Assembly: GCA_000004985.1 (NCBI GenBank) | Contig: GG738878.1 | Length of the DNA: 64,000 bases | Origin: Naegleria gruberi | Lineage: Eukaryota | Direction: 5' to 3' (one strand) | In this document: in pieces, positions 1 through 61,778 of the stretch | Layout: each line of letters starts with the position of its first letter | How positions within the stretch are numbered: the first letter of the stretch is position 1 | The notes under the pieces: generated by a model | The model's database searches: none | What the model was told of the DNA's origin: nothing | Seen by the model: the letters and a program-made list of their open reading frames with translations, nothing else | Translations under genes and position numbers: made by a program

Positions 1-729
1 AACTCCAATACATGGATGGAAATGATTTAATAATCATAATAATGAATTGATGTGCCATTTGTCTAACAATATCTAATCTATGAATACACATTTTAAATAA
101 ATAAATAGTTTCTTGTGCTAATATATGATTCATTTCATCTCTTGATTGTTGATATTGTGATTGTTGATATTGTAATTGTGATTGTAATTGAGATTGTTGA
201 GGTTGAGATTTAATATAAATTAATAACCATTGTTCAAATATTCTTCTTAATAATGATTGTAATGTTGTATTTACTATATTTGTAAATATATTATAATGTT
301 CTAAATAATTTAATAAATGTTTTAATGGTTGACCTGAACGTGCTCTAAATAATTCTAAATTATACATTGAAATTAAAAATATTACTTCTTCAATTGTTAA
401 TTGTCTTAAAATGGAAGGATTAACAAGTATATCTTTACCATGATTAATATAAGATTCTAATTGTTGTGTAAAATATGTCTTTTCTTCTTGTAATATATTT
501 TTAGAATCTAAAATTACTTCAATTTCCTTATTAATTTCCATAAACGTATGAATATTAGAATTTAATAAAATTGGACCATTCATTCCAATAATTTGACATG
601 ATTCAAATGTTTCATCATTAAATTCATTTGGATTATTAAATTTAAATATAATTATATAAAACCACATCATTCTAAATAAATTTAAATTATTATTTAAATT
701 ATTATTATTATTTAAATTTAAATTATTTA

Positions 730-766
<37 letters not shown>

Positions 767-2984
767 AGATTTAATTAAAGTAGCAACAGCAGGTAATAAA
801 ACAGCAATATGTTTTAACATATCTTTTTTCTTTTCATTTGATTCTTTCATAATTTGAATTTCACCACCTAATTTATTAATTAATTTAATTAATTTAATTA
901 ATAATAAATGTTTTAAATCAATTCTATTTTTTAATTTCTTATTCATAATATAAATAGAATCAATTAATAAACCACCAATAACAGTTTCACTTGAATGAAA
1001 TGGATTTTGATAAATACTAAAAATTAATTCAACAATTTCATTAAAATAATGTCCATTACCTAAATCAATTAAATGTGATAATGCTCTTAATGATAAATTA
1101 TCTAATTTACCCATTGATCTCTTTTTAGTTAATTGTCCTGATAAAACAGGTAAAATTGAATCTGTAATTGGATTATGATCAATTTCAGTTGCAATATTAC
1201 CTAATAAAGTAACTCTTCTATTATTTTTAATAGAATCATCTGGATTTAAATAAATATTATTAGAAATTGCAAATACTGCACTTGATGTATTTAAAATACC
1301 TCTCTTATTAAAATCATAAATTAATATATTTGAAATACATTTTGTAATATATTCAATTAAATGTTCAGATTTTTCATTAGATTCTTCAATAAATTCACGT
1401 AATGTTTTAACACTTAATGAAATATATTCTGAATTTTCAATTTTACAAATCTTTTCAATACAATTTATCATTTCTTTTATCATTTTCTCTTCAAATTTAT
1501 TATATCCACAATCATTATTTTTAGAAAATTCTAAACATTCAATAAATATTTTTAAAACTTCTTTTTGTTCAGTTGTTGTTGTTGTTAATATAATAGATTG
1601 ATTATTATTATTAGAATTATTATTATGATGTTGATTATTATTACCATGTTGATTATTATTATTAGTATTATGATGGTGATAATAATGATTTGATAATTTT
1701 AATGAACAATTTAATGCCAATTGACATGATGTACAAAATGCATTAACACTATAATTAGTATCTATATTTAAATCAATATCATGTTCTTGTTGTTTAAATG
1801 TTATAATTCTTTTATAATAATCTAATGATAAATTTCTAAATGAAATTAATAATAACTTGTTCAATTCTTCATTTTCTAATTTATTTGATAAAACAATATG
1901 ATCACATATTTTTAATACTAATACAATCATACTTTTTAATAATCTTGATTTAAATGCTTTTAATTGTTTAATTTCATTAGATTGTTTAAATGTTGTTATA
2001 TTAATAAAATATTGAACAATTTCATTCACTATTTTATATTGTTCATTACTCATTTGAGAAGGTAATCCTTCTGATAATCCTTTAAATACTCCATATAATA
2101 CACGTGCTGTATTATCACTATCAAATATAACTATTATTATATTTATATTTAATATATATATAGATGAATGTTATTATGATGTTATGTTGTTATATTGTTA
2201 TTATTGTTATGTTAAATAAATGAATAAATAGATGAATATTGTTATTATTATTATTATTGTTATTGTAAAAATATAAAAACTTACATTTAGATTCATATGA
2301 TTTCATAATTAAATAACATTCATTTAAACAAATATTAATTAGAGAATTTGTAATTTGTTGTGAATATTCAACGTGTGAATAAGAAATATCTCTCAATAAA
2401 GAAATTAAATGATAAGAGAAATATTCACCTGTAATTTTAGTTTTTTGATTCCATTTACAATGTGGTAAATGATTAACAATACCAATTAATAATGGTAATA
2501 TTTGTTCACAATATTGTAAAGATGATGAAGATGATTTACATCTAGTTAAAAAGTAGGCTAATGCAAGTGCTGATTCTTGTCCTTCTTCAGTTAATGATAA
2601 TAATGAATGTTTCTTATTATAATCATCAAAATCTGTAATTAAATCATGATCTTCATTTTCTTTATGAATAATAACTTGTTTAAATCCTTTAGAATGATGT
2701 TGTTGTTGTTGTTGTTGTTCAACATTGTTACCTCCTCCATTATTATTATTATTATTATTATTATTAGTAGTATTATTATTATTAATATTAGATCTAATAA
2801 TAGTAGTAGTAGGTAGAATAGGACATTTATGTTTAATAAAAGTTAATTTCTTTTCAATACATTGTATTTGTGAAGGTGTCTTGTCATTTAAATTTTCTAA
2901 TTTACTAATACTTTCAACTAATTCTAAAAGTATTTGTAATTGAAATGATGCTATATATTCTTTAATATTATATACTTTATTCAT
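1..2984 (-). CDS. Large Asn/Gln-rich alpha-helical protein of unknown family, partial. The 5' end (Met at 2984) lies in the window and the 3' part runs off the window start.
   Basis: Minus-strand ORF from ATG at 2984 (MNKVYNIKEYIASF...). Exon 1 is about 2984..2285 with a GTAAGT donor. An AT-rich intron of about 2131..2284 follows. Exon 2 runs 2130 down to position 1 with no stop and stays in frame (MSNEQYKIVNEIV... to ...IIKSFPSMYW). No competing plus-strand ORF of 60 aa or more exists in 1..2190. Coding (AAT)n and (CAA)n tracts lie within it. Confidence 0.5.
731..765. repeat. (ATT)n trinucleotide microsatellite, about 12 units, inside the coding region of the 1..2984 gene (poly-Asn tract on the minus strand)
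   Basis: attattattattattattattattattattatt at 731-765. Confidence 0.8.
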
Positions 2985-7855: not shown

Positions 7856-10390
7856 CTATTGAGTAGTGTTATTGTTGTTTGAATCTTTTCTCAATAATTT
7901 TGTAACATTGGCAGCAACAAAAACTTCTTGTGCCTTATTAGTTCTACCTTGTTTAGAGAGAATGGTAATCTTTTGAGCCATTGGTGGTGGTGGTGATGAT
8001 GATGATGTATTTGTACTATCATGTTGAGCATGTTGAGCATGTTGAGTGTGTTGAATGTGTTGTTGGTGATGATGATGATGTGCTGGTTGTTGATGATGAA
8101 TTATTTTAGGTGTAATAGCTTGTGTCATCATTTCTTGTGGTTTTGAAATCAATGTACCCATCTTGACAATATTATTATTGGTCAAGTATTTTCTCTCATT
8201 AATACTTTGATTAATCATTTCCATTAATTCCTTATCCAATTCACCTCCATCATCATCTTTATGTGTTGATGATTTAGAGTTGTTTTGAGAATCTTCAGTT
8301 TCATCTTGAACAACATCTTCCTCTTCAGCAGCAGCAGTTGCAGAAAGTTCATCCTCATGATCATTAATTGGCCATAGTGAAAGTGGATCATTGGATTTAC
8401 TTTGACCTGGAAGTGGAATTGGTTTCTTTTGTTCAATATAATCAATTTTATCAACAACTTCCTTCAAATTCTTTGGCCATTTCAATTTAGGTCTAACTGT
8501 ATCCAAAGTATCTGCTAACATATTTTCCATATCGACTGGTAAACGATACTGTTTACTTAAAACATATCTCTGCAAATATAATAAAAATCTATCTAATTTC
8601 TTTCTATCGGCAGATGTTTCAAAATAAGGACCACATGTATCTAGAAGAGTACAAACTAATCTCAATCTAAAAGTATCTTGTTTGTGTGGAAGTAGTGGTG
8701 TTGGATATAAAATTAATGTGTACAATACATCCATAATGACATTAATATCTAATAATTGATAATTATAAAATTCACCCAAGAATTTGATATCAATAATTCT
8801 TTTTTGTTCAGATCTTAATCTAGATGGTATATATTCAGCATTTTGATTAATACCCAATTCAATATTATCAATATATTCTTGTTGAAGTGAATATCTAATT
8901 TCCTCTAATAAAAGATCAATAATAACAACACCAATTTCTTCATGATATCTTGATAAACCTCCTAAAACACTTGCCATTAAATGAATAGTACCAAATGCAC
9001 ATTCTCTTATATGTGATAGAATACTCTTGATAATATTTTTAATTCTATCAAAATCATCGTATGGAAGTTTTCTCAATTGTTTTAAAACAGTATTAATATT
9101 ATACTTGTTCAATTCTGATAAAAGTAAATGTAAAACATATTGTGTTAATTCATCATCTTCACCAAATACTGTTCTTGGTTTTTCAACTTCTTGATCAACA
9201 TTTACAACTGTATTATAATAGGCACTATCAATCATGGTATTATATTTTACATCTAGTACTTTAATATCTTTAATTCTCATCATTTTAGAAATTAATTCAA
9301 CCATTAATAAATGTGATGTAGATTGTGCATATAAATATCTTCCACAAACTTCAAGAAAATGACATGCAACATCAATATTATGATGATGAAATTGTGAAAG
9401 ACATTTCTTTAAAAATTCAATACCAGTCTCTTCTGGACATATTTTAAATAAAATTAATTCACCCAAGAATCTAATATTTTTAACTTTGGTTTCAATTTTG
9501 ATTTGATCTTGTTCTTCAAATAATTTGTTAAATTCTTCTTCTAATGATTGAACAAGTGATTTACCAACATCTTTAAAAAGTGGATTCAATATAGCAATTA
9601 ATCTACTATAATATGGTAATAATTCTAAACTTGTTCTATTAACACTAAACATCTTTTTAACTAATTTAGTTCTATTACCTTTTTGATTAAGATATTTTAT
9701 AGCCAATGTTGTTGCTAATTTATCAATAGGTGGTCTTTTAGGTAATTTATCTAATAAATCTTCCATAGAAACTATATTTTCTAATTCATTCTTATCATTA
9801 ATTAATGTATTAATATCAGGTATTTCTTCATAGAATTGTCTTGTTCTTTCATTTACAAATTTATCAATATTATCTGTGAGAATATCTTTTTTATCTTGTT
9901 GTTCTTTTTTAGCTGATAAATCTTCAACTTTAAGTAAAGCATCTTCAATATCTGATGGTATCTTGGATTGAAGAATGTCAGCAGCTCTTTATCAAAATAA
10001 AAATGTTAAAAATAATAACAATGTAAACATACTCTTTTGCTAAATCGTATTGTTTCTTCCATTGTTTCAACTTTTTCTTTTCCTTATCAAGATTTTCAGT
10101 ATTTCCATCATCAATATTTGTTGTAGCTGCTTGTTCATCTTCATTAATTTCCTTTTGTTTAGATCTTAAACGTTCACAAAGTGTTTCAAAGAATGACAAG
10201 AATTGTTCATTAATAAGTTTGTGTTCTGGTTCAGTGATAAAACATTTAGTAGCATCATAGGATTTTCCAATTAAAAAGTCATGTTGGAATTCTGTTAAAA
10301 AAGGCATTAAAATTGATGATTGTGAAGTTTTCTTATTGATTGTAATCTAATTAGTCCGAAAGAAGTTCAATTTTGAATATTTACACACAT

Positions 10391-12287: not shown

Positions 12288-14470
12288 ATGGAAGAAGAAC
12301 GTGAAGCAACATTAGATTCCGAACCAACAACACGTGTTGTTGTAATTCTAATTGATCACATTAAAAATACTGATGATCAAACAACAACAGCATCGAGATG
12401 TGAATTATTAATGACAAGTAAATTTTCAGAAACAAGGCTTGATTTTCTCTACAAGGAAACTCTTATATATTTAGCTAAAAGATTTGATAGGAAGGATTTT
12501 ATTTCATTATATCACAATGATAGAAAGTTTGTTCTAGCACTATTAAAGAGTGATTGTATTGATGCTGATATTTTACCTCAATTATTAGAATATTTTGCTA
12601 GTTTGATGAAATTAACATCGGAGGATGAAGAAATTATTGCACTCCTAATGATCAAAAACCATTTATCACAAAATCAAGTGAATGGAATGGCACATCTATT
12701 AGAACATAATACAAGATTTCTACATCAAGTTGCTTCTTATGGTTTTTTTCTTGATAAATTAACTGATAGAGATTTTGTAATTGATCTAGTAATGGAGAAA
12801 CCAAAGAGATACAAATCTTTGAGTTCAGATTTGAAAAATGATAGAGAGGTTGCAAAGGCTGCCTTTTCAAAAAGAGGATCTTTGATTACCAATGAATTCT
12901 ACAATGATAGAGAATTACTGCTCATTGCATTGACTAATGATGGTTCAGTCTATTACAACCTTGATGAAGAACTAAAAAATGATTTGGAAATTATTAACAT
13001 TGCTGTCAAAACTTGTCCTGAATTGTTGAGCGAATTGGATTGTTCCTTCTTCAATGATGTTGAATTTTCAGAGAGGGCTGTAAAATTATTGCCAAATGTT
13101 TTAAAATTTGTTCCACAAATATTAGAGGATTTGGAATTAGTTAAAAGGGTTTTTAGTGCTGAAGTTCTTCCTTATTTAAAGTCTATTCACTTGCAAGATG
13201 ATGAAATTAGATCACAAGTTGAGAACCTTGTAAAGGAATGTAAAGAGAATTATACGAGAGCTAGTAGTGATTTGAGAATGGATAAAAAACTTGCACTTTT
13301 AGCTTTAGAAAATGGTGTAAAATTATCCTATATATTAATTCAAGATTATGACTGTTACAAATTGGCTATTACCAAAAATCCTCAAACCATTTTTTTTTGT
13401 GACCCTGAATTCTTAAAAAGTCATTTTGATTTGGTAGATTTGGCATTCTCATTACATGGTCCAATGCTTTATTATGATTTGCCATCAAATATTAAGCATG
13501 ATCCAATTTGTGTAATGAAAATAATTGAGAAAGAACCATCTGTATTCTCAAGTCTTGAAAAGGAATTGAAACAAGATGAACAGGTTTTAAGTTTATATTA
13601 TAGTTTGCTTGATACTTCAAAAGAAACTGTTAAATTGGTGGAAGGAAAGAAATTATATATGAATACTTCTTTTCAAACCAAACCATTTTATGATTTTACA
13701 CCATCTGATTTTTCCAATATCAAACCATTCTCACTTGATACAAGTAATAGTGCTTTTAAATTTGGATTATCAAATACATCAAATACTGCTACTACAAGTA
13801 CAAGTACAACAACCACCAACAATGGTGAATTAGTGAATCCATTTGCCAATAAGAATCCATTCTCCCTCACTTCATTCACAATAGTTCATCAACTAATACC
13901 ATGAATCCATTCTCAAAACCAGTCATTTCAAAAACTCTTACTTTACAAGAAGAGATTCATTTATCAAATGATAAGAATTTTCTTAAACAAGTTTTTGAAA
14001 AGGATGCATTCTTATTTAGATATTGTAATGAAAATTTAAAAAAGGATCAGGAATTTATTCTTGAATTAATGACCAAGCATACAGGAGCAATTTTCCAATT
14101 TGCTGATAATTCTTTGAAAGAAGATAAGGATTTTGTTTTAAAGGCCATTCCTATTTCTGTTACAGTTTCCAAATTTATTTCTCCCAATTTGAAAGAAGAT
14201 AAGGAAATTATTTTGAAAGCATTGAAAACATCACCTGTTGCCTATGCATTCTTTGATAATTCTGTTCTATTTTGTGGAGATCAGGATATTGCTTATAGGG
14301 CTGTTAAATCAAATCTCCATATTCTTAAAACTATTAGTATTGATTATTTTAAGGATCGTAAATTTGTCTCTCAATTATTCAAGTTAATGTTTAGAAAGAA
14401 AAAGTACAAGAAGAAGAAGAATGGAAATAATCAAAAAACAACAACAACTAATAGTACTACTACTAATTAG
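12288..14470 (+). CDS. DUF4116-repeat protein. It is encoded as two ORFs in different frames (12288..13904 and 13901..14470) joined by an apparent -1/+2 frame break.
   Basis: Both ORFs are built from repeated helical modules of about 28 aa (LKNDxEvvlxAvxxxgxaLxyas pattern, DUF4116-like). ORF1 ends ...NPFANKNPFSLTSFTIVHQLIP*. ORF2 begins MNPFSKPV, with its ATG overlapping the ORF1 TGA as ATGA at 13901-13904. The NPF motif repeats across the junction. No GT..AG intron of correct phase fits, so a 1-nt indel (assembly error or real) is likely. Confidence 0.5.
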
Positions 14471-20851: not shown

Positions 20852-22736
20852 ATGTCAACCGTAGAAAGATCGTTATCATCATCATCGGAACATGTGGATC
20901 CTATTCTACAAATAATTATTATGGAATTTACTCCATTGGTTGATGAATCGATTATTAGAGATTTATATTTGGAGAATGGATGTGATTTTGATAAAACTAT
21001 CAATGAAGTATGTTTTTTAATATTTTAATTATTATTCATCATTAAATATTGATGAATATGTTCATGATCATCAACATTCATACGCCAATTATAATGTCAT
21101 CAACATTCATAACAATTTAATGATCATCATTTAGTTATATTTCATCTTGTCATCTAATGATCCTTCTATTTCGGATATAGAATCCAATGCAGATTCTCTA
21201 AATAATATTTCTAATGTGGCAACATTTAGTGATAGTGATAATTATCAAGATTTTTCACTTCATTCACCAATTAATAGAGATGATGAAAACAATGTATTAC
21301 TACTTTACCATATGTTTAAAGATATTAAAAGTGGAGATGAAGATTTAATTGAAAAGGATTTTATTCAATTTTTATATGAAGAGAATGACAAGGATTTATT
21401 TCAAACTATGGAAGTATTACGTAGAGCATTATGTAGTCAATATGATGATATTTCTATTCCAGAAACTAGTGTAAATAATAATCAAAAACAACCTTCATCG
21501 TTATTTGCTGCAATTGAACGAAATAAGCCACTTAGTGAAATGGCACGAGAATTACCAGTGTATTTTATAGTAGAAGATGAACAAGAAAAGAAAAAGAAAC
21601 AAAAACAAAAGCAAAAACAGAAAACAAGCGAAAAGAAAAAGAAGGTTGAAATGGAAACTAAGGACAAACAACAAAAAATGAAACAATTATGTGAAATATT
21701 CCCAAATATTGACAGATCCATGATAGAATCTCAGTTAATTGCTAGTAATTTCAGTGTTGAAGAAGCTACCTTGTATATTTTAAATCAAACCACTAAATCA
21801 TCTGGTAATAATCAAAAGAAGAAACCTAGTAATAATGGTAGAGGTGTTGTAAGAAACGATTTACTTGTTGGTGGGTCTAGATGGAGTACTAATAGTGGCT
21901 CTATTTCTCCAACCTCTACTCCTAAGTCAAACCTCAGTTTGCAAATGAAAAAACAAAAATTATCCGATCTTATCAAAGGAAAGGGTGTATCTCTCGAGTT
22001 TGCAACTGAAATTTTTGCTCAATGCAATGAAAACTTGACCAATACCATTGAAACACTTGCAGAAATGTATCCTAATCAATTTAAGAATCAATCATCTAGT
22101 GAAGATTTACTAATCAAGCCAACTAGTCAAGAAGTTATCTATGGTACCACTATTGGTCCACAATCAGCTGTTTTACCATCCAATATTGTAAATGTTAATG
22201 AGAATAATTCTAGAAATCAATCAAGAATTGCATTGGATGAGCTTATGCAAAAGAGAAAGCATTTCCAACTACCTGACTTGGTTGACACTGAATCTAGTTA
22301 TTTGCAAGCATCTAATCAATATACAAAATTAAGAGATAAGTTTATGGAGCTTGCTGTCAGAGCACAACAAAATGGAAATTATGGATTGGCGACAAACTAC
22401 ATGTCTAAAGCAAGACAATACTCAATAATTGTTGAAAATTGTCATGATAGAGCAAATGAAATTTCAGTAAGAGAGCAAACAGGAGGAAAGATGATAACAA
22501 GGCCAAGAAATCTCGATTTGCATGGTTTGGTTTTACAAGATGCCTTGGAAACATTAGAAGAATTCCTTAACAAGATGAGAAATTCATGTGAGAAGGTTAA
22601 TATTATTACAGGTTCAGGAAAACACTCCAAGAACAACCAGCCTGTTTTGTTACCTGCAGTTAATCAATACTTGTTAGAAAATGGATATGATTTTAAACAG
22701 CTAGGAAAAGGTGTGTTCCAAGTTAAATTCAGATAG
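20852..22736 (+). CDS. CUE-domain and Smr-domain protein (yeast Cue2 / human N4BP2 / NONU-1-like candidate no-go-decay endonuclease)
   Basis: Exon 1 is 20852..21007 and encodes CUE-like ILQIIMEFTPLVDESIIRDLYLENGCDFDKTINE; a GTATGT donor follows. The intron is 21008..21134. Exon 2 is 21135..22736. A second CUE-like segment is LCEIFPNIDRSMIESQLIASNFSVEEATLYIL. The C-terminal Smr domain is LDLHGLVLQDALETLEEFL...VNIITGSGKHSKNNQPVLLPAVNQYL. A (AAACAA)n-encoded KQKQKQ tract lies at about 21600. Confidence 0.7.
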
Positions 22737-22803: not shown

Positions 22804-23941
22804 TTACACAAGTTAATGGATGGATTCAAGTTTTTTGATGAGCTCAGAGGCATTTTGGATTCTCTCTTTAGGATTAGAGCATAACATTTTAACAAATACG
22901 TCTTTCAATTTTGCATTCTCAATAATATCCAACAATTCCATAATCTTCTCTACTTGAGCATGATCTTTCATCCAAGAAACTCAAACATGACAAACCTAAA
23001 GAAAATATATCAGCGGCAGTGCTTGCATACGGTATTTCAGACTTTTTGGAGAGAAAATTGTCATATTATGGAGGATGAAAACCTTTAGTGCTTCCCAGAA
23101 TTGTACAAAATTCAAAATCTATTAACACCACATCACCATCCTTAATCAACAAATGTTGTGGCTTAATATCTCCATGAACAATATCTTCATCATGCAGTTT
23201 CTTTAAAGCACATGCAGCAGAATGCAACAAATCAAATAATTGTTCCTTCTTAATTGTATTCAAGTTTTTGGCAACAGACATGATCAAAGTGTTCATTCCA
23301 TTTCCCCAACGTGAATTGTTAATAACTAAGGAGTTTAGAGATTGTTCCATGTTGAATGGTTTTAAGTTAGTATATTGTTTGACAACTTCGTGATCTTTCC
23401 TATTATTGTCACTTTCTCTAATTTGAACCAAGTAAACAATTGATCTTTCATTCTTTGACTTGTATCGAATATTAGACGAAACCATTAAATAGGCTAACAT
23501 ACAAATAGCTTGAAACGGTACTTGAAACAAGACATATCTGGAATTTCAATTTGTTCAAGTATTTTCTAATTACAATATTTGGCGAATCTAAAATCGTCAC
23601 CTCAGAGTTTACTATTTCCAATAATTTCAAGATATATCTCGAACAATACATTGAATAGAACATTAAATTATCAACTTCTTGGTTTCAACAAAAAACCCAC
23701 GAGCTCTGGTTCCATGAATAGTTATGGGATTACTTCCAGCACAAAACAACGAGTTGTCAATGGCAATTAGTTGCTTTCTTAAGAATTTTGGGAAAAACTC
23801 TTTTAAACAAGTAATTTTGTTCTGAATAGTTTCTTCTTCAGATGAGCTTGCAGACTCACTTTCAAAAGAATCCTGACTTCTCTCGTCTGATCCAACTAAA
23901 GCATCACTTTCTTCATCCTTTTCTTTTTTAATTTGTTTCAA
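22804..23941 (-). pseudogene. Protein-kinase-like gene (CK1/VRK-like motifs) with disrupted reading frame, probably a pseudogene
   Basis: Minus-strand ORF 23066..23530 carries catalytic-loop and activation-segment motifs IVHGDIKPQHLLIKDGDVVLIDFEF and ends in an in-frame TAA immediately after GFHPP. Downstream, the same frame continues into subdomain IX (SEIPYASTAADIFSLG). The C-lobe (WMKDHAQVEKIMELLD...MLCSNPKERIQNASELIKKLESIH*, stop at 22804-22806) then sits in a different frame after ...SFL. The N-lobe region 23531..23941 has no clear GxGxxG or VAIK motif and is split across frames. Confidence 0.45.
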
Positions 23942-24439
23942 ACATATACTTTCAATTGTGTAACAATATCTGAAATATTCAAAGTATTGACAGTAAATTC
24001 AAATGGTACTTTGCCATCCTTAAATCTCAAGTAATAGTGTAACGATGAAGGAAGGAAAGAAGTTAAGGAAAATCTATTGCTGGGTTTCCTTATGCAACTT
24101 ATCCATCAATTGAAGGGATTGTCTTGCAAGCATTTTCAGAATATTAATAATTGAACTTCTTAAAGGACTTACAAGTCTTTGGAGAGGTCGTTAAAGCAAT
24201 GAAACCTACAGTCCAAATTGAATCTTTTCAACTCAACATTAAAAAATACTTTCGAATATTTCATTTAGGTGAGTCTACAAGTAGTAACCTAATAACCTAA
24301 TTAATTTAAATGAAACTGTATAATAAAAGAAGATGGATAACATTATATTTCAACATTTATCATTTAGGAAATTTACAATAAAACGTCAAAGTTATTCGAA
24401 TATTGTTCTTGTCGAGACATTAAAATAAACTAAAAAAAA

Positions 24440-26148
24440 ATGTCATCATACAACAACAATATAAATTCACCACCTCAAACACCAGGTGATCTAAATAGTT
24501 CCTTTATTGAAGATTATGATGAAATTGAAGAATTTCATGAAGAAATTAATGTTCAATCATTTTCACCTGCCATCCTTCAAACGTCACCTTCATTTAAAAC
24601 TCCTAAACAAGTTTTAATATCATTAAATAATTTAAATGATGATCAAAAACCAATCATTGATGAATTTATTGAAATGAATAAGAAATTAAAATATCACAAA
24701 TTTGATCAATTTGAATTGGGTGATGAATATGGTGGAATGAAATTATCACTTCCAACCAATATTTATAAACCTATTTTTACAAATGAAAAGACAGGTGCTG
24801 TTAAAGTATTAGGTATGTTATATTCTATATTGTAATGAATATTTAATATTTAATAATATTGTAATTAATATTTAAAAATATTGTAATGATGGGTAATGAA
24901 AAAAAATACATAAAAAATAGGAAAAGGATCATTTGGTGTTGTGATTGAATGTTTAGATATTGAAAGAAATGAAAAAGTAGCCGTAAAGAAATGTATCAAT
25001 GCTCTAAATATTGCACCGTGGAATATTATAAGAGAAATTGAATGTATGAAACATTTACGTGGACATCCAAATGTCATTGAACTCATTGATGTATATATTG
25101 ATTATAATAGTTTTGATAATGAGAATTCAGATATTTATGTTGTAACTGAATTGTGTGGAAAGACAATGTGGGAATATTTGAATGAAAAAACATTTCCCGC
25201 CAATTTTATTACAGAACAAGAAATTAAGAATTTAATGTCACAATTGTTATCTGTTTGTGTTTTTATGCATAGTGCTGATATTTTACATAGGTATGTTTAA
25301 TATTTATTCAAATATTTACAAAAATTATAATATTGTAAAATTATAATATTGTTGTAAAATATTTAGAGATATTAAACCAGAAAATATTTTAATGAAAGGT
25401 GATAGAATTAAATTAATTGATTTTGGATCTGCAACTAAATGTAGAGAACAACAACAAGTTGAACATATGGAATCAGTTTATGTTGTCACTAAATATTATA
25501 GACCTCCAGAAGTAGTTTTAACTTCTGATCAACAATCTCCTGCCATTGATTTATGGTCAATTGGTTGTGTATTTGCTGTAAGTAGTACTACTTGATTGAA
25601 TAATTGCGAACACTGTTTTGAATGGTGTTTGTTACTCATTCATTCTTTAAAAATAATAATAATAGGAATTACTCTTTTTACTTGAAGATCCACCATGTAG
25701 ACAACCATTATTCTTTGTTAAAAACTCTGGAATGTTAAGTGTTAAAGAACACTTGATGAAAATTATTGCAATTTGTGGTAAACCAGCTCCAAATGAAATT
25801 ATTGCAAGTGAACGTGGAATGGAATTCTTCCAAAGTTTATTAACAAAAACCAATCAACCAAAAGTACCACTTGAAGCAATCTTTGTAAATGCATCACATG
25901 AAGCTCTAGATTTATTGAGTAAATTATTAACATGGAGTCCTAAGAGACGTATTACACCTGAAGCTGCTCTTCGTCATCCTTACTTGAAGAATAACCCATT
26001 CATAGACACTAATAATGCAGATGAAGAATTCCAAATCAATTTGGTGTTGAACTCTGTCAAAATTACAGATCGAACTGAATCAAATAATTGGAAATTAACT
26101 CAATGGAAGAGATGTTTAAAGGAATTACTAATTGAATGGAATAACTAG
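24440..26148 (+). CDS. CMGC-group serine/threonine protein kinase, 4 exons
   Basis: Exons are 24440..24812, 24921..25290, 25367..25577 and 25666..26148. The introns are 108, 76 and 88 nt with GTATGT/GTAAGT donors. Splicing restores the Gly-loop LGKGSFGVV, the Lys in VAVKK, the catalytic loop H|RDIKPENIL, DFGSA, an activation loop YVVTKYYRPPEV, and DLWSIGCV. The stop TAG is at 26146-26148. Confidence 0.8.
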
Positions 26149-48840: not shown

Positions 48841-50142
48841 TTATTCCTTCTTTGGATACTTGAGCCCAGTCAATGAAGGTTTAATATAAATTGGACAAGT
48901 AAGAACAGCATCCGCACCAAAACCCACAGCACATGTAACTACAATATTGTAGCTAACTTGAATGAGTTTAGAGTTATTGATAGATGCCATCCAAAAAGCT
49001 CTATTTTCAAAATTATCATATTGTTCAGAGTTTTCAGCTTTTGACTCTATAGAACGATAGGATGGAATTTCAAAAGTAATCTTGGTTTCATAATTTTCTT
49101 CAGATAAAACAATCTTATCAATTTGTTTCTCAAACATTACAATATTTTCTTTTTCCTCAGCTGGTTTGCTCTCGAAAAACTTTAATCCACCTTCTTCCTT
49201 TTCCTCAGTTTCAATATGTCTAAATTCTTGAATAAGAGCAACATGGATGCTGTTCACAGTCTTGGTTGATTGATTATTAACTTGAAGACTGAAAACGATA
49301 TCATCGTCATACATTCTGAAAGTATTTCTAGCAAAATTACATCCAACCTTCAGCTTTTTTGCACTAAATAAATACTTTTTAGATGTTTCAAAGTGCATGG
49401 TTGATTTTCCAGAAACTCCTTCAATAGTAGGATAGAGTTCACTCACAAAGAGAATGCATGATTTTTCAATCTTACAAGTATGCAAAGATTGTTCATTACT
49501 AACAACTTTCTTTTCCTTTGGATGATGAGCAGCAACAACTGATGTATGTGCATTGTGTTCATGGTGCTGATGATTAACTTTAATTTCGTGTTGTTCCGTA
49601 ACTAAGAAGGCTTTAAATTTGTAACAAATAGAATATTGTGTATCGTGTCTTTCGTGGAATGTGCTAGTAGGAATTCTATCTGGGAGAGTATAGGAGAATG
49701 GATACGAATGTTGTCCAATATCTAAATCTTCATTCATAAAGTCTTTAATTAACATATAATCCACAAAGTAGACATGTTCTTTTACAACTTCATATTCATT
49801 GCTTTCATTCTTTTTCGAATGTCTTTCAAAAGCTTTACATCTCAAAACAAGTTTTTTAGATACAGATGAATCCAAAGTACTTGTTAATTTTACATCAATA
49901 AATCCGGATACACAATCATGTTCCTTGATAAATTTCTTGTCATTATTTGAAACTCTGATACGAATAGAACCTCCGGAAGTAATTGTATTCTTAAATTTAA
50001 AACGTTCCAGAGTAGATTGAGGAATTATTGATGATGGTGTGATGGGAACATCTTCAACTGTAACAAGAATATTATCTGGTGGTGGAGAGTGTCCAAGATC
50101 AAAGCCATTGTTGACGATGTGCTCATCCGATGCAGAGTTCAT
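48841..50142 (-). CDS. Arrestin-domain-containing protein (alpha-arrestin/ARRDC-like)
   Basis: 433-aa single-exon ORF. The arrestin_N hallmark GQHSYPFSYTLPDRIPTSTFHERHDTQYSICYKFKAFL fits G.HsFPF.F.LP...P.SF....g.i.Y.lKA.L. A second beta-sandwich, presumably arrestin_C, follows. Confidence 0.65.
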   Translation of the reverse strand: MNSASDEHIVNNGFDLGHSPPPDNILVTVEDVPITPSSIIPQSTLERFKFKNTITSGGSIRIRVSNNDKKFIKEHDCVSGFIDVKLTSTLDSSVSKKLVLRCKAFERHSKKNESNEYEVVKEHVYFVDYMLIKDFMNEDLDIGQHSYPFSYTLPDRIPTSTFHERHDTQYSICYKFKAFLVTEQHEIKVNHQHHEHNAHTSVVAAHHPKEKKVVSNEQSLHTCKIEKSCILFVSELYPTIEGVSGKSTMHFETSKKYLFSAKKLKVGCNFARNTFRMYDDDIVFSLQVNNQSTKTVNSIHVALIQEFRHIETEEKEEGGLKFFESKPAEEKENIVMFEKQIDKIVLSEENYETKITFEIPSYRSIESKAENSEQYDNFENRAFWMASINNSKLIQVSYNIVVTCAVGFGADAVLTCPIYIKPSLTGLKYPKKE

Positions 50143-52321: not shown

Positions 52322-54363
52322 TTAGACGGAGAACTTCCAGGTCTTACACATGAAATCTTCACCACCAGAAACAAATGTTTCACTATCAATGAATGCACAA
52401 GTGGAAACACCCAAATGGTGAGCCATGTCAGTCTTAACTCTCTTACCAGCAGCAAGATCCCAAACAATCAAGTTCTTATCAAGTGAACAAGTAAGCATAT
52501 ACTTGCTATCATCAGACCAATCGACATCAACAACAGCAGATGAGTGATAAGTCATGTTGGAATACTTTGGTTTCCATGATGCAGTATCAAAAATAACAAC
52601 ATCATAAGCACTATCAGCTGAAGCTAAAAGAGCACCATCTGGAGAGTAAGAAACCTTTTGAATCTTGGCTGTGTTTTCAGCAAGTTCAGTGGCACCGTCA
52701 ACAATCTTTTGACCAGCAACCTTATAAACACGAATCTTCTTATCCTTACAACCAACAGCAATTTCACTACCATCAGGCTTAATTGAGATAGATTGTGGAT
52801 CCTTATCAATCTTGACTTCAGACAAAATCTTACCATCAGCAGAGAGCAAAGTAGCACCAACGTGAGTTGAGATGGCAACCAAATTTCCATCAGCAGAGAC
52901 AGAAACATCATTTGGAGAACCGAGCAAAGTAGTGGCATCACCAACATATGTGAAATCTGAAAGATTGACCAAACGAACTTCGTTATTTTGAGCAGCAGTA
53001 ATCAACTTGTCACCAGCAATAGCCATAGTATTAATAGTAACATCTTGGTGCCCATTTCCTTGAACCTTAGCAACACTACCAACACCAACTTCCCATTTAA
53101 TCAATTGACCACCAGTTGAACAAGTGTAGAAGAATTTACCACCAGATTTCTTATCAACAACAATCTTGTTGACACGAGCATTGTGACCCAAAATCTTTCT
53201 TTCAACACGAGTACAATCCTTAGAGAGAACGTTCAAATCACCGTTCAAAGAAATTGAAACAGGAACACCAGCAATTACTGAAACACCAACTTGAATATCA
53301 TTGGTAGAATCTCCAATAACAGTGGTAGCAACACATTCCTTAGTATCAATATTCCACAATTTGACAGACTTATCACCAGAAGCAGTGACAATATGCTTGT
53401 TGTCCAAATAGGACAAACCATAGATTGAGAGCTTGTGACCATTGGTTTGAGACAATTCACCAAGTTTTTCACCAGTCTTTCCTTCAAAGAAAATAACCTT
53501 CTTATCAGATGAGCAAGAAGCAAAAGTACTTCCGTCTGGTGAATAACGAATACAGTTAATGAAACGTTCGTGATCCTTGTTTGAGTGAGAGAACTTGAAT
53601 GGAGGACCAGTGAAAAAGTTCAAAGACAAATCAGCACCACCAGTGGCAATTCTGAATGGTCTTTCTGGACGAGAATCACAAGTGAGAACTTCCTTTGAGT
53701 GAGCAGAAATTTCACCAGTATTAGTACCCATATCATAAGCAAAAACAGCTCCGTATTCTTGTTTACCATCACCAACAGCAACAACACGTTGGGAATCACC
53801 AGTCCAAGCCAAATCACGAACACTCTTTGACAAGACACGCTTTTCCAATTTGATGGTCTTGTCAGCATTTTCAGTTGACCAAATACGAACATTACCTGAC
53901 TCATCTCCTGAAGCAATGTAAAAACCTGTTGGTGCGAACTTTGCAACATTGACCTTATGAGTGTGTTGAGTATAATAGTCAATAGAAAGCAAATTGTTCA
54001 AATCACGGATCAAAACATTGGTTCCAGAACCATAGGTGAATTTACCAGACTTGGAGGCAGGAGCAGCAGAAATAAAAGTTGGACGGCCTCTTTCGGTATT
54101 TGGGACACCACCGTATACGTTTTCTTTATAAAATGTTATTGTTGTTATTTGCAGTAGTATCACACGACATCATCATGATTCAAACAAATCATTGTATACA
54201 ACAGATCAAAGTGTCGGTATCATTATTAATCATCAATGATAATACATTGTATTCATTATCCGCATCAAATCATCATGTATACACCAACATCAAAAAAGAA
54301 TCATCAAGCTTAAGATATTCCTTGCCCAAGCGAGAAAAAATACTTACGGAGAGAGATGGACAT
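52322..54363 (-). CDS. wdr1: Actin-interacting protein 1 (Aip1 / WD repeat protein 1), 2 exons
   Basis: Exon 1 is 54363..54348 (MSISL, GTAAGT donor). The intron is 54124..54347 (224 nt). Exon 2 is 54123..52322. The N-terminus MSISLQNVYGGVPNTERGRPTFISAAP...FTYGSG aligns with D. discoideum Aip1 [27 protein letters not shown]...IVYASG. 14 WD repeats are recognisable, for example YAPTGFYIASGD, GEISAHSK, FKFSHSNKDHERFINCIRYSPDG, IYGLSYLDNKHIVTASGDKSVKLWN and DWSDDSKYMLTCSLDKNLIVWDL. Confidence 0.85.
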
Positions 54364-56863: not shown

Positions 56864-56967
56864 TTGTTTAAATTAGTTTTATTAATAAAGATAACACAAA
56901 CAATAAATTGTAAATAAGAGAGTGTTTTAGATTGAACAGGGCTTAGTATTTTTTACGAACAATGTAT

Positions 56968-57040
56968 TCCCCCTTAGCTCAGTCGGTAGAGCGTCAGACT
57001 GTTAATCTGCAGGTCGGTGGTTCGAGCCCACCAGGGGGAG
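56968..57040 (+). tRNA. tRNA-Asn(GUU): tRNA-Asn (anticodon GUU)
   Basis: A 73-nt cloverleaf. The acceptor stem TCCCCCT pairs with AGGGGGA (57033-57039) and G is the discriminator. The D-arm is GCTC AGTCGGTAG AGC. The anticodon stem-loop TCAGA CTGTTAA TCTG(C) has GTT at positions 34-36 and U33. The T-arm is GGTGG TTCGAGC CCACC. There is no intron. Confidence 0.85.
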
Positions 57041-57925
57041 TAATGTTTTATTTTCAATATCTTAATTTATTGTTATTATTCATTTCTGTTTTCACTCCCT
57101 TGTAGTGCAGTCTGCCTTTTGGTGGAATGTTGAACCGAAAAACAATTTGAAAATTCATTAGAAGAAGCATTAATCTTATAAAAGGAAGGTAGTTGACTGT
57201 CCGTTTAAATACACTTGAATAGGATACAACTTTTTTTCGTTGTTTGTAACTTCATGGTTGACAATCAAAGTATTCGTGGACTCCACAACATTGGAAAGTC
57301 TTGGACTGGAAAATCTCTTATTGTTAGGCAGTGAAAATGACAAGAAGGCTTACCTGAAGTCTTAATTTCCTTTTTCCATACACCATCAATCTAATGCGTG
57401 ACAATGGATTCAACCAAACCCTCTGTTTTCAAAAACCTTTTCACACATTCACATAAATAAAAATCTTATAAACGAGCTCGTGGGATCTTCTCTTCATCCC
57501 GTTTCACCAGCTCTTTAAGATACATTCCCCATCTTCAGTACTATATTTTACAACAACAATTATAGCTAAAATCGCTTTAATTCATTTAGGAAGATCATTG
57601 GAGATTGTCCAACAACAGAAATATTTTTTAATTTTAATATTTATTTAATAATCTAAATTGTTAATATCCTGATTTAAACAAACACTTTTAAACTCGTTCA
57701 ATAATTTTTAGACTTGTAGTGAAGAGCAACTCACGTACAACTCCAACCAACATCTTATTTGAAAATCAAAAACGATACCGTACTCAAACAAATAAGGAAA
57801 AGTTGGCAAGAAATCATTTCGAACAACATCAAAATTGTATTTAATTACAACCTTTTGTACAGAGTTTCGTTTCATCAGTTTACACTCTATCGACATCACT
57901 CGACCCGATATAACTGAATTGTATT

Positions 57926-60062: not shown

Positions 60063-61778
60063 TTATAAAGTTTCTGCTTCATCAGCAATGGTTGAGGTAT
60101 CGTCTTCGTCTTCACTGGAGGCAACAGCTGATTCATCATCATCAGCATCATCACCTTCAGGTATTTCGTATAAATCTAATCTGTCTCTGTTTGGATGCTT
60201 CAACAAGACAAATTCGCAATCTTGCTTATTGTTTTCTTGGAGATATCTTTGAACATATTCGATTATGAGTTTAACAACACCCCACATGTTGTACAAATGG
60301 AGTTGAAGTTGATCAGCAAAGTCTTCTGGTCTGTATTTTTCAGTGCCCAAAATAAGGTGAGTCTTTGTAGCCTTTGGTGATTGTCTTGAAACGAAACCGA
60401 GCTTGAATTGCTTGCTTGAGCTCAAAAGGGCTTGAGCAGTCCACTTAGCCATTTTGGCAGAGTTGTTCTTAAATTCAGCCATGATGATTGAGGTCTTTTG
60501 GGATTCCATTGAAGTCTTCCAATCAGCAACATTGTGATATTGATTTTGTTCTGCTGGGAAATATTCATTCAAAACCTTCAATGACATTTCTTCATCACCT
60601 GAAGTTTCCTTAGACAAACCATTGATTTCACATCTTACGAGAAGGTTAATTGAGTCACTTAATTTGAATTCACGATACTTGTAAGCCAAGTTAAAGACAC
60701 CAGTTGAGAATGGAACAGCTTCGTTACCCAATTTCTTAACTTCATCTTCCTTGAAAGCTTGTTTTTGGAGGTAAGCATTGACGAGAGTAGCTTCCTTACT
60801 CAATGAGAATGCAGAGTTGATGGATTGAACATTCTTTTCATCTACTGATGGAGGATTTGATGATGTTTCAGAAACAGAGTGCCACAAGTTAATGTTACGA
60901 CCTTCCAATTTTCTCATATCCAAATAAATCTTTCCTTCACTGACACGAACAGCCATATCCCAAGGAAGTTCGGATTTAGAAGCAGCCATAAGTGTAGCAA
61001 TAGCATCATCAGTGGCAAAAACGTTGGCTTCTGGAGCAGTCTTATTGTTAAGAAGTGGATCTTCTGATGAAGCTGGTGGTTGAAGAATATAACCATTAAG
61101 TTTTTGTGGTTTTTCCAAAGTGAGTGGTTGTTTGGCAGAAGCTCTGTCAAACTTCTTGTCATAGTATCCCAAACTACCACAAATATGACGATCAATTGGT
61201 TCAGGTGTCTTGTATCCTTTACCACTTTCCAATGGTTCTGTTGTAGCCTTCTTCAATGTACCGAATAAGAATTTATCAATCAAGACCCAGCTCTTCTTAA
61301 CCTTGATGGAAGGTTTGTAGTTTTGTGTCTTGGTTTTTTGATAATAGCTAAGTGTGGCCTTCTTTTTCTTTTGTTTGTTTTGCTTGTTTTGTTCTTGGTT
61401 GTAAGCAGCCTTTGGAGGTTGTGATTGTGTAGTAGGTCTTCTCTTGTTTTGATTATAGTTGGTGTAGGATTTTCTTTGACTTTGAGTGTTTGAAACGACC
61501 AAGTTAAAGTCGTCATTAGCACCAGTTACATTGGCAATAGCAGCAGCAACTGAGTGAGTTGTTGTACTTGTTGTTGGAGCCGATTGTTCGCTTGTCCAAT
61601 CAGCAATTTTACCAATACTTATTTTACTAGGAATAATGTGAAATAAATTTGTTGGCAAAGACAAAATTTCTGATTTAGATTGTTCAACAGAAGAGGAAGC
61701 TGGGTGAATAGGACCCCATCCTTCCTTTGATTGTTCGAGCAGAGAAATGGCAGAGAGTAAATCTGATGACGATTGCAT
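60063..61778 (-). CDS. eif3d: Eukaryotic translation initiation factor 3 subunit D (eIF3d)
   Basis: 571-aa single-exon ORF. N-terminal GWGP and GKIADWT align with human GWGP and GKVADWT. NVFATDDAIATLMAASKS aligns with NVFATDAILATLMSCTRS. LVRCEINGL aligns with IVRCEHDGV, and EFKNNSAKMAKWTAQALL with ELKNNSYKLARWTCCALL. The C-terminal tail is acidic, as in eIF3d. Confidence 0.85.
   Translation of the reverse strand: MQSSSDLLSAISLLEQSKEGWGPIHPASSSVEQSKSEILSLPTNLFHIIPSKISIGKIADWTSEQSAPTTSTTTHSVAAAIANVTGANDDFNLVVSNTQSQRKSYTNYNQNKRRPTTQSQPPKAAYNQEQNKQNKQKKKKATLSYYQKTKTQNYKPSIKVKKSWVLIDKFLFGTLKKATTEPLESGKGYKTPEPIDRHICGSLGYYDKKFDRASAKQPLTLEKPQKLNGYILQPPASSEDPLLNNKTAPEANVFATDDAIATLMAASKSELPWDMAVRVSEGKIYLDMRKLEGRNINLWHSVSETSSNPPSVDEKNVQSINSAFSLSKEATLVNAYLQKQAFKEDEVKKLGNEAVPFSTGVFNLAYKYREFKLSDSINLLVRCEINGLSKETSGDEEMSLKVLNEYFPAEQNQYHNVADWKTSMESQKTSIIMAEFKNNSAKMAKWTAQALLSSSKQFKLGFVSRQSPKATKTHLILGTEKYRPEDFADQLQLHLYNMWGVVKLIIEYVQRYLQENNKQDCEFVLLKHPNRDRLDLYEIPEGDDADDDESAVASSEDEDDTSTIADEAETL

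What the first reader, a model, noticed from the sequence alone, without database searches (positions are those of the whole stretch)
22804..23941. Decaying protein-kinase-like gene with an in-frame TAA and a frameshift inside the catalytic domain
The catalytic loop and DFG-equivalent are present but atypical: IVHGDIKPQHLL and LIDFEF, which use HGD and DFE. The ORF stops with TAA right after GFHPP, resumes in the same frame through subdomain IX (SEIPYASTAADIFSLG), then switches frame before the C-lobe (…KMLCSNPKERIQNASELIKKLESIH). The N-lobe cannot be reconstructed in one frame. This is either a recently pseudogenised kinase or pseudokinase, or a cluster of assembly indels. No plausible short intron of correct phase explains both lesions.
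Basis: seen in the sequence. Interest (0 to 1): 0.5.

Follow-up and report, generated by a model that had tools for sequence, protein, structure and literature searches.

The report
Dead kinase gene copy in Naegleria
This is an ordinary pseudogene: a decayed, intron-containing copy of a Naegleria-specific protein-kinase-like gene. Its stop codon and frameshift are real mutations, because an independently sequenced sister strain carries both.

Summary
The window is Naegleria gruberi nuclear DNA. On the minus strand, about 24192-22813, lies a broken copy of a small Naegleria kinase-like family whose other members look intact (NAEGRDRAFT_53201 and XP_002682028).

- HGD and DFE motifs are present.
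- A TAA follows GFHPP, and the same frame resumes after it.
- The frame changes by +1 before the C-terminal helices.

HGD, KPxH and DFEF are family traits, not decay. The TAA replaces the Glu of the PPE (=APE) motif, which is Glu in 3/3 paralogues.

A 567-bp contig from a different N. gruberi-like strain, assembled independently from Illumina reads, covers the same locus with the same flanks. It carries the same TAA and the same frameshift sequence. Assembly error is therefore excluded for both lesions.

Further damage lies upstream:
- three more frame changes
- a frame-shifting deletion of the family's most conserved N-terminal motif
- loss of about 400 N-terminal codons

Two short GT-AG introns (50 and 44 nt) sit at positions conserved in paralogues, so this is an unprocessed pseudogene. 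The public annotation calls only a 139-aa fragment, NAEGRDRAFT_69338. Verdict: ordinary, low interest.

The parts
24173..24192 (-). Last codons of an upstream exon remnant (..NDLSKD, then TT of a split Leu codon).
   Evidence: It aligns with ..DDFSKD of paralogue P0170 directly before a conserved intron. Similarity further upstream is not significant against shuffles.
24123..24172 (-). Retained 50-nt intron, GTAAGT..CAAG, phase 2.
   Evidence: It has the same position and phase as the intron of P0170/L001 (FSKD|L/S-EC..). Removing it gives a gapless NDLSKDLQSLQLMDKLHKET against DDFSKDLECFQMMQILFEKT.
24083..24122 (-). Exon segment LQSLQLMDKLHKET. The ATG at 24133 lies in the intron.
24082..24082 (-). 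Lesion 1: a frame-shifting deletion that removes about 16 codons, the motif GYIYPIxAPSxxNAG.
   Evidence: The motif is present in 4/4 other family members that cover this region and absent here. The frame changes at this point.
23950..24081 (-). N-terminal-domain segment SNRFSLTSFLPSSLHYYLRFKDGK..IVTQLK.
   Evidence: It aligns with RLSLTCVLPSSLLYYLKYKEN.. of P0001/P0170.
23948..23949 (-). Lesion 2: frame change (net -1/+2).
   Evidence: A 32-nt GTATAT..AAAAG intron (23949-23918) would also restore the frame, but L001, L003 and L004 read straight through this position.
23675..23947 (-). N-terminal-domain segment ..KEKDEESDALVG..ITCLKEFFPKFLRKQLIAIDNSLFCAG..FFVETKK.
   Evidence: 36% identity to P0001; family alignment.
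23673..23674 (-). Lesion 3: frame change (net -1/+2).
   Evidence: The residues on both sides align with paralogues (VESSS | DMKTLIYYCLVTCKYILK).
23576..23672 (-). Segment DNLMFYSMYCSRYILKLLEIVNSEVTILDSPN.
23566..23575 (-). Lesion 4: frame change, exact position uncertain (23591-23566). One option is the 8-nt GTAATTAG.
23503..23565 (-). Segment KILEQIEIPDMSCFKYRFKLF, which ends in the start of the kinase domain.
   Evidence: It aligns with ELQEVSLPEMNWFNYRFKQL of P0170.
23459..23502 (-). Retained 44-nt intron, GTATGT..ACAAG, phase 0.
   Evidence: Removing it gives YRFKLF|SKNERS against YRFKQLSKNERS. Paralogous loci have 39-nt (L003) and 38-nt (L004) introns at exactly this position.
23069..23458 (-). 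Kinase N-lobe, catalytic loop (VHGDIKPQH) and DFE (LIDFEF) through TKGFHPP. The public model NAEGRDRAFT_69338 (139 aa) spans 23485-23066 and starts inside the intron.
   Evidence: Pfam Pkinase. P0020 is identical to this ORF. A 15-nt in-frame deletion relative to the sister strain lies between the TGTACA at 23107-23102 and the TTCTGG at 23099-23094; the exact junction is ambiguous because the flanking A bases repeat.
23066..23068 (-). Lesion 5: in-frame TAA at the Glu of the PPE (=APE) motif.
   Evidence: Paralogues read GFHPPEYD, GYHPPEYD and GYHAPELE. The same TAA is in the independent contig L002.
22940..23065 (-). Subdomain VIII-IX and alphaF segment YDNFLSKKSEIPYASTAADIFSLGLSCLSFLDERSCSSREDY.
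   Evidence: It is colinear with paralogues up to the conserved 'DY'.
22939..22939 (-). Lesion 6: +1 frame change (possible range 22978-22939).
   Evidence: Different guide proteins place it at 22978, 22954 or 22945. Placing it after REDY keeps the DY shared by all paralogues. The sequence here is identical in L002 apart from a 3-nt indel.
22813..22938 (-). C-terminal segment ELLDIIENAKLKDVFVKMLCSNPKERIQNASELIKKLESIH plus the TAA stop.
   Evidence: 50% identity to P0001 residues 446-487. The sister strain has a 4-nt deletion in the ATCCATCC repeat that shifts the last codons.

Best explanation
The locus is an unprocessed pseudogene in Naegleria gruberi. It is a dead copy of a small, lineage-restricted family of atypical protein-kinase-like genes. 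Each family member has an N-terminal KTGYIYPI..NAG..YRxS domain followed by a kinase domain with HGDIKPxH and D[FY]EF motifs.

The copy keeps the parental exon-intron structure, with two short GT-AG introns. It has accumulated these lesions:
- a nonsense mutation at the APE-motif glutamate (consistent with GAA to TAA)
- four small frame-shifting indels
- a frame-shifting deletion of the most conserved N-terminal motif
- loss of the 5' third to half of the gene

It cannot encode a complete kinase. At most it could give a fragment ending at GFHPP, without the C-lobe. The 139-aa public gene model NAEGRDRAFT_69338 is such a fragment, and it starts inside an intron.

Shown: the homology, the lesions, the conserved intron positions, and the presence of the TAA and the C-lobe frameshift in a second strain. 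Inferred: that the locus has no protein function, that the other four lesions are also real, and that it arose by gene duplication rather than as a unitary loss.
For: Organism: the eIF3d ORF in the window is 100% identical to the N. gruberi protein on a 395,411-bp scaffold. P0020 (NAEGRDRAFT_69338), which is identical to the ORF at this locus, is on a scaffold of the same length.

Family: a profile search of 1.84 billion proteins, followed by cluster look-up, finds N. gruberi paralogues P0170 (944 aa), P0169 (768 aa) and P0025 (182 aa), plus metagenome pieces. The alignment is colinear across the whole locus but only if the frame is changed five times.

TAA: it aligns with Glu in 3/3 paralogues, and 16 motif residues are missing here that are present in 4/4.

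Introns: the two introns sit at positions shared with L001, L003 and L004.

Independent check: L002 matches window 23159-22601 at about 98% identity in aligned columns (BLAST reports 95% with gap columns counted) and includes 212 nt of syntenic flank. It has the same TAA and the same frameshift context. The two strains differ inside the pseudogene by 6 substitutions and by 15-, 3- and 4-nt indels. The flank has 2 substitutions and no indels.

Neighbouring genes within 100-300 bp are intact. No intron candidate rescues the lesions.
Against: - Only the 3' 347 nt of the pseudogene is covered by the second strain, so lesions 1-4 rest on the NEG-M assembly alone.
- The between-strain substitution counts are too small to prove relaxed constraint. 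There are 2 synonymous and 4 non-synonymous changes. Intact paralogues also differ by 2-3% in protein sequence between the same strains.
- No expression data could be consulted.
- The repaired frame has only one stop in 447 codons, so decay is shallow.
- Lesions shared by two strains would also be expected if they were functional recoding sites.
Confidence: 0.9

Rival explanations
1. The gene is intact in the organism. The stop and frameshifts are sequencing or assembly errors in a low-coverage stretch of the N. gruberi NEG-M Sanger assembly.
For: Indels outnumber the one visible substitution lesion, which is the usual pattern of read errors. Lesions 1-4 have no independent coverage. The whole lesion cluster spans only about 1.3 kb, roughly two Sanger reads.
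Against: An independent Illumina/megahit contig from a different strain has the identical TAA and the identical sequence at the C-lobe frameshift. The flanking ORFs, 529 aa ending 77 bp away and the exons of the kinase gene about 300 bp away, are intact. The 16-codon motif deletion and the missing 5' exons are not error-type lesions.
Confidence: 0.02
2. The gene is functional and is decoded through unusual tiny or non-canonical introns, or through programmed stop read-through and ribosomal frameshifting.
For: Naegleria introns in this family are very short, 38-50 nt. A 32-nt GTATAT..AAAAG element would fix lesion 2, and an 8-nt GTAATTAG would fix lesion 4. The TAA and the frameshift are conserved between two strains.
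Against: - The TAA sits inside GFHPP-E-YD, which is colinear with paralogues. Every in-frame GT/GC-AG candidate that removes it deletes conserved residues and lacks a consensus donor.
- By direct reading of the sequence, the five frame changes go in both directions and share no slippery or recoding motif.
- Paralogues have no introns at the lesion sites.
- The N-terminal motif is simply absent.
- One strain has a further 4-nt frame-shifting indel.
Confidence: 0.03
3. The locus is a pseudogene by descent but still acts. It could act as a transcribed regulatory RNA. It could also give a truncated protein (N-lobe plus catalytic loop, ending at GFHPP) that interferes with its paralogues.
For: A 154-codon ORF survives, and a 139-aa part of it is annotated as a protein. 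The locus lies about 300 bp from a divergently oriented gene whose promoter region could drive it. The lesions have persisted in two strains.
Against: There is no evidence of expression. The annotated ATG lies inside a conserved intron. The fragment would lack the alphaF-alphaI core of the C-lobe. Strain-specific indels suggest drift.
Confidence: 0.05

Closest known systems
N. gruberi paralogue NAEGRDRAFT_53201 (XP_002670950.1, 944 aa; P0170) and its sister-strain 3' exon P0001/L001
   Same: The domain order is the same..FSKD | intron | ..KTG.IYPI..NAG..YRLS.. N-terminal domain, then YRFK, SKNERS, a kinase domain with VHGDIKPQH, LIDFEF, TKGFHPPEYD, and NPKERI at the C-terminus. Identity to the repaired window sequence is 34-37% in the BLAST/tblastn alignments, 44% over the aligned columns of A3, and 51% over the kinase part alone.
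   Different: The paralogue is uninterrupted over these 503 codons. It has about 440 further N-terminal residues and a ~55-aa acidic insert, and it has no intron after YRFKQL. The window copy has six disabling lesions and lacks the 5' part.
N. gruberi paralogue XP_002682028.1 (P0169) and its sister-strain locus L003
   Same: It has the same intron position after (N/Y)(I/Y)RFKxx (39 nt against 44 nt), the same N-terminal domain, and HGDIKPDH, IDYEF and TKGYHAPE motifs.
   Different: In L003 the N-terminal exon and as much of the kinase exon as the contig holds are uninterrupted. The contig ends before the stop codon. Identity to the window copy is about 32%.
Unprocessed (duplicated) pseudogenes of multigene families
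   Same: The copy retains introns and gene structure, carries nonsense and frameshift lesions, is truncated at the 5' end, and shows strain-specific indels.
   Different: Nothing unusual. The only notable points are that public annotation treats a fragment as a protein-coding gene and that the parent family is itself undescribed.
Eukaryotic protein kinase superfamily (Pfam PF00069), with motif resemblance to HGD-type kinases (RIO, Bud32, APH/choline-kinase-like; the latter comparison is from general knowledge)
   Same: The Pkinase C-lobe match is above the cut-off. The catalytic Asp, the DFG Asp, a candidate beta3 Lys (VVKQY) and a candidate alphaC Glu (MEQ) are conserved across the family.
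   Different: There is no GxGxxG loop. HGD replaces HRD, KPxH replaces KPxN, and DFE replaces DFG. PDB sequence matches are only weak, with CDKL3 best at E=1.7e-4. APH, Kdo and RIO Pfam matches are at or below their cut-offs.

Membership tests
Unprocessed pseudogene | Clear homology to a protein-coding gene family that has intact members | tested here: met
   tblastn E=4e-53 to P0001. N. gruberi paralogues P0170 and P0169 exist, and uninterrupted sister-strain ORFs are seen in L001 and L003.
Unprocessed pseudogene | Disabling lesions (nonsense or frameshift) at positions that are coding and conserved in relatives | tested here: met
   The TAA is at the conserved Glu. Five frame changes are needed for a colinear alignment, and a conserved 16-residue motif is deleted.
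Unprocessed pseudogene | Lesions are real, not artefacts of one assembly | tested here: met
   The TAA and the C-lobe frameshift are present in the independent contig L002 from another strain. Lesions 1-4 have not been checked independently.
Unprocessed pseudogene | Parental introns retained (as opposed to a processed retro-copy) | tested here: met
   The 50-nt and 44-nt GT-AG introns lie at positions shared with L001, L003 and L004.
Unprocessed pseudogene | Relaxed selective constraint | tested here: inconclusive
   Between strains there are 2 synonymous and 4 non-synonymous substitutions and 3 indels, one of them frame-shifting, in 347 nt. The 212-nt flank has 2 substitutions and no indels. 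The numbers are too small.
Unprocessed pseudogene | No full-length transcript or protein | not testable with these tools
   No N. gruberi RNA or proteome data are reachable. No papers mention the locus tags.
Eukaryotic protein kinase domain (PF00069) | Profile match above Pfam's gathering score | tested here: met
   45.5 bits against 31.7 for the repaired translation, but only profile positions 88-241 are matched. Paralogues score 41.6-45.6 bits.
Eukaryotic protein kinase domain (PF00069) | Catalytic-loop Asp and DFG Asp | tested here: met
   VHGDIKPQH and LIDFEF are conserved in all family members, with HGD in place of HRD (HCD in P0025), His for the metal-binding Asn, and Glu for the DFG Gly.
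Eukaryotic protein kinase domain (PF00069) | Glycine-rich loop GxGxxG | tested here: not met
   The position is occupied by SKNERS(I/S)VY in the window and P0170, and by other Gly-free sequences in L003 and L004.
Eukaryotic protein kinase domain (PF00069) | APE-motif Glu and a complete C-lobe | tested here: not met
   In the window the Glu codon is TAA and the C-lobe is out of frame. Both are intact in the paralogues.
Eukaryotic protein kinase domain (PF00069) | Bilobal kinase fold | tested here: inconclusive
   The AlphaFold2 model of P0001, built from a 4-row alignment, has mean pLDDT 38.4 and is unusable. No fold search was run.
Programmed recoding (read-through or ribosomal frameshift) | A shared recoding signal at the sites, with a single direction of shift | tested here: not met
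   The five frame changes go in both directions, and no common heptamer or context is visible in the sequence.

The most novel reading that the evidence does not exclude
The dead copy is not inert. It could be transcribed from the promoter region it shares with the divergent CDK/MAPK-like gene. It could then yield either a regulatory RNA or a truncated N-lobe plus catalytic-loop protein that modulates its intact paralogues. A related point is that the parent family is an undescribed, Naegleria-restricted lineage of atypical kinases (no Gly-loop, HGD/KPxH/DFEF) undergoing birth-and-death turnover.
Probability: 0.05. Interest if true: 0.35.

Novelty: new member of a known kind. Interest (0 to 1): 0.12.

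Why it matters
It matters mainly for annotation hygiene.
- NAEGRDRAFT_69338 (XP_002675402.1, D2VKB8) is a pseudogene fragment whose start codon lies in an intron. It should not be counted in the Naegleria kinome.
- Related models appear incomplete: XP_002682028.1 is marked partial, and NAEGRDRAFT_63349 has only 182 aa.
- The case shows that a public metagenome assembly can serve as an independent check on a suspected assembly error in a protist reference genome.
- Biologically it documents turnover in a small lineage-specific kinase-like family with unusual catalytic motifs and 38-50-nt introns. None of this is surprising to a specialist.

Tried and rejected
- Ciliate-type code (TAA = Gln or Glu) and Stentor-type 15-16-nt introns: rejected. 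The window has 500-1000-codon ORFs free of TAA/TAG, the neighbouring gene has 76-108-nt GTATGT/GTAAGT introns, and the organism is N. gruberi.
- Introns as the cause of the flagged lesions: all GT/GC-AG candidates were enumerated and rejected.
- The 24-nt in-frame 'intron' proposed by my alignment program in the acidic tract (23859-23836): spurious.
- The 32-nt intron at 23949-23918: considered unlikely, because three paralogous loci read straight through that position.
- Upstream exon remnant beyond about 24200: not significant against shuffles.
- Exact look-ups of window ORFs and of P0170 and P0169 to obtain NEG-M annotation or DNA: not on record. No nucleotide-level dN/dS control on the intact paralogues was therefore possible.
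- JGI metagenome scans, by peptide patterns and by a 29-nt DNA pattern with N at the TAA's first base: no relatives.
- The search for homologous proteins did not return the identical 139-aa P0020 or the 63-aa P0026. They surfaced only in the exhaustive HMMER search.
- AlphaFold2 model of P0001: pLDDT 38, unusable, so no fold search was run.
- Literature searches for the project accession, the locus tags and Naegleria intron statistics: nothing usable.
- One search was an empty script.
- In one search the first 13 codons were mis-phased. This was corrected.

Full report
**Where the window comes from.** The window is about 30% G+C and gene-dense, with long ORFs free of TAA and TAG. The gene next to the finding has three GTATGT/GTAAGT..TAG introns of 76-108 nt. 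The eIF3 subunit D ORF at 60063-61778(-) is 100% identical to a Naegleria gruberi protein on a 395,411-bp scaffold. The next best matches are N. fowleri (71%) and Willaertia magna (66%). The window is therefore N. gruberi nuclear DNA read with the standard genetic code.

**The observation.** The feature lies on the minus strand.
- A 154-codon ORF (23530-23066) contains ..DIVHGDIKPQHLLIKDGDVVLIDFEFCTILGSTKGFHPP and ends in TAA at 23068-23066.
- The same frame continues YDNFLSKKSEIPYASTAADIFSLGLSCLSFLDERSCSSREDY.
- The C-terminal ..ELLDIIENAKLKDVFVKMLCSNPKERIQNASELIKKLESIH* is in the +1 frame.

Pfam's Pkinase model matches the joined translation at 45.5 bits (cut-off 31.7, E=8e-12). Only profile positions 88-241 are matched.

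**The parent family.**
- The word-indexed protein search gave a single relative, P0001. It is a 503-aa uninterrupted ORF on a 2.3-kb, 31% G+C metagenome contig (ENA ERZ929261) and is 34% identical over 99% of the query.
- An exhaustive HMMER profile search of 1.84 billion representatives, followed by cluster look-up, showed the rest.
- The 139-aa ORF MVSS..GFHPP is itself the public N. gruberi model NAEGRDRAFT_69338 (XP_002675402.1, D2VKB8).
- P0001 is the sister-strain counterpart (98% amino-acid identity) of the 3' exon of N. gruberi NAEGRDRAFT_53201 (P0170, 944 aa).
- Further N. gruberi members are XP_002682028.1 (P0169, 768 aa, partial) and NAEGRDRAFT_63349 (P0025, 182 aa).
- Metagenome pieces P0021 (L003), P0047 (L004) and P0051 carry the N-terminal domain.
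- No paper mentions these locus tags.

In the family alignment the motifs VHGDIKP[QD]H, [IL]D[FY]EF and TKG[FY]H[PA]PE are shared by all members that cover them. A Lys (..[VI]IKQ/H[YC]) and a Glu that could be the beta3 Lys and the alphaC Glu are also shared. There is no glycine-rich loop in any member. The best PDB sequence matches are weak: CDKL3 at E=1.7e-4, then phosphorylase kinase and TTK.

**Gene structure and lesions.** I aligned the paralogues to the DNA with a frameshift- and intron-aware dynamic programme. Homology runs colinearly from about 24192 to 22816 on two conditions.

The first condition is that two short introns are removed.
- A 44-nt GTATGT..ACAAG intron (23502-23459, phase 0) gives YRFKLF|SKNERS against YRFKQLSKNERS. 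It lies exactly where L003 has a 39-nt GTAAGT..TAG intron and L004 a 38-nt GTAAGA..CAG intron.
- A 50-nt GTAAGT..CAAG intron (24172-24123, phase 2) lies where P0170/L001 have theirs (..FSKD|..).

The second condition is that six lesions are accepted.
1. At about 24082, a frame-shifting deletion removes GYIYPIxAPSxxNAG, which is present in 4/4 other members.
2. A frame change at about 23949.
3. A frame change at about 23674.
4. A frame change at about 23575-23566.
5. The TAA at 23068-23066 falls on the Glu of the PPE (=APE) motif, which is Glu in 3/3 paralogues. A single G-to-T change from GAA would produce it.
6. A +1 frame change lies between 22978 and 22939. It is best placed after REDY, because the 'DY' is shared by all paralogues.

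The kinase N-lobe itself (SKNERS..EVVKQY..NMEQSL..TLIMSV) is in the same frame as the catalytic loop.

The roughly 400-440 residues that precede this region in P0170 and P0169 have no detectable counterpart in the window. The divergent CDK/MAPK-like gene starts only about 300 bp upstream.

After repair the frame has one internal stop in 447 codons. In the reconstruction of 415-416 codons, the other two frames had 29 and 46 stops. A rough estimate from mutational paths to stop codons puts neutral divergence since inactivation near 1.4%, with a very wide interval of 0.04-8%.

**Are the lesions real?** P0026 is a 63-aa ORF about 90% identical to the C-terminal piece of this locus. It led to L002, a 567-bp megahit contig from the same metagenome as P0001.
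- L002 aligns to window 23159-22601 at about 98% identity in aligned columns. BLAST reports 95% when gap columns are counted.
- The match includes 212 nt of flank (the intergenic spacer and the 3' end of the convergent Smr-domain gene), so L002 is the orthologous locus in a different strain.
- L002 has the same ..CATCCTCCATAATATGAC.. and the same ..GAGTTTCTTGGATGAAA..CAAGTAGAGA..TTATGGAATTG.. sequence.
- The TAA and the C-lobe frameshift are therefore genuine and older than the strain split.

Inside the pseudogene the strains differ by 6 substitutions (2 synonymous, 4 non-synonymous in the repaired frame) and by three indels.
- A 15-nt indel: the sister strain keeps five codons that fill the gap the NEG-M copy shows against its paralogues.
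- A 3-nt indel.
- A 4-nt repeat slip that shifts the last codons.

The flank has 2 substitutions and no indels. This pattern fits drift, but the counts are too small to prove it. Intact paralogues differ by 2-3% in protein sequence between the same strains.

**Alternatives.**
- Introns cannot explain the flagged lesions. There are 31 GT/GC-AG candidates that would remove the TAA in frame and 23 that would correct the frameshift. None has a GTAAGT/GTATGT donor, and all would delete residues conserved in paralogues.
- Recoding is unlikely. The frame changes go in both directions, have no common context, and are accompanied by a plain deletion of a conserved motif.
- Random assembly error does not fit either. 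The neighbouring ORFs within 77-300 bp are intact.

**What it is and how it compares.** It is an unprocessed, 5'-truncated pseudogene of a small Naegleria kinase-like family. It cannot produce a complete kinase. The only sizeable ORF is the 154-codon fragment, and the public 139-aa model of it begins at an ATG inside the 44-nt intron.

**What could not be done.**
- Lesions 1-4 could not be verified independently.
- NEG-M DNA of the paralogues could not be fetched.
- JGI metagenome scans found nothing.
- An AlphaFold2 model of P0001 was unusable, with pLDDT 38.

**Verdict.** The object is ordinary.
- Interest: 0.12.
- Novelty: a new member of a known kind, namely an unannotated pseudogene.
- Most novel reading not excluded: a still-expressed truncated product or regulatory RNA from this locus. 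Probability about 0.05; interest if true 0.35.

Noticed in passing
window 24440-26140 (+): A CDK/MAPK-like protein kinase gene, apparently intact, with three GTATGT/GTAAGT..TAG introns of about 108, 76 and 90 nt. It is oriented divergently from the pseudogene, with only about 300 bp between them.
   Followed up: partly
window 20852-22736 (+): A CUE + DUF1771 + Smr domain gene (Cue2/N4BP2-like architecture) that converges on the pseudogene and ends 77 bp from its stop codon. It probably has an upstream exon at 20852-21028.
   Followed up: partly
L003 892-1578 and P0169 (XP_002682028.1): The public N. gruberi model P0169 leaves the kinase frame after ..LYSASL and continues into unrelated sequence. 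The sister-strain contig L003 shows that this gene has an uninterrupted kinase exon as far as the contig reaches (HVHGDIKPDH, IDYEF, TKGYHAPELE). The NEG-M model is probably mis-spliced or partial. NAEGRDRAFT_63349 (182 aa) may also be a fragment or a second pseudogene.
   Followed up: partly
window 23502-23459 and 24172-24123; L003 about 803-841; L004 about 947-984: Introns in this gene family are very short (38-50 nt), with GTAAGT, GTATGT or GTAAGA donors. They are shorter than the 76-108-nt introns of the neighbouring gene.
   Followed up: partly
L001, L002, L003 (ENA ERZ929261 / ERR1078381, PRJEB11402): This public metagenome assembly contains contigs of an N. gruberi-like strain that differs from NEG-M by about 1-2% in DNA and 2-3% in protein. 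It could be used as an independent check on other suspect sites in the reference genome.
   Followed up: partly
window 56967-57041 (+): tRNA-Asn (GTT), the only tRNA that ARAGORN found in the window.
   Followed up: no
window 1-2000: The most A+T-rich stretch of the window, at 18.6% G+C against about 30% elsewhere.
   Followed up: no
window 12288-13904 (+): An ORF with DUF4116 repeats (E=8e-32). Other identifiable neighbours are a MIF4G protein (7856-9766 -), a WD40 protein (52322-54163 -), an arrestin-like protein (48841-50142 -) and eIF3d (60063-61778 -).
   Followed up: no
tool behaviour: The word-indexed protein search did not return the 139-aa N. gruberi protein that is identical to part of the query, nor the 63-aa sister-strain ORF. 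Both appeared only in the exhaustive HMMER search. Short proteins may be missed by the indexed search.
   Followed up: no
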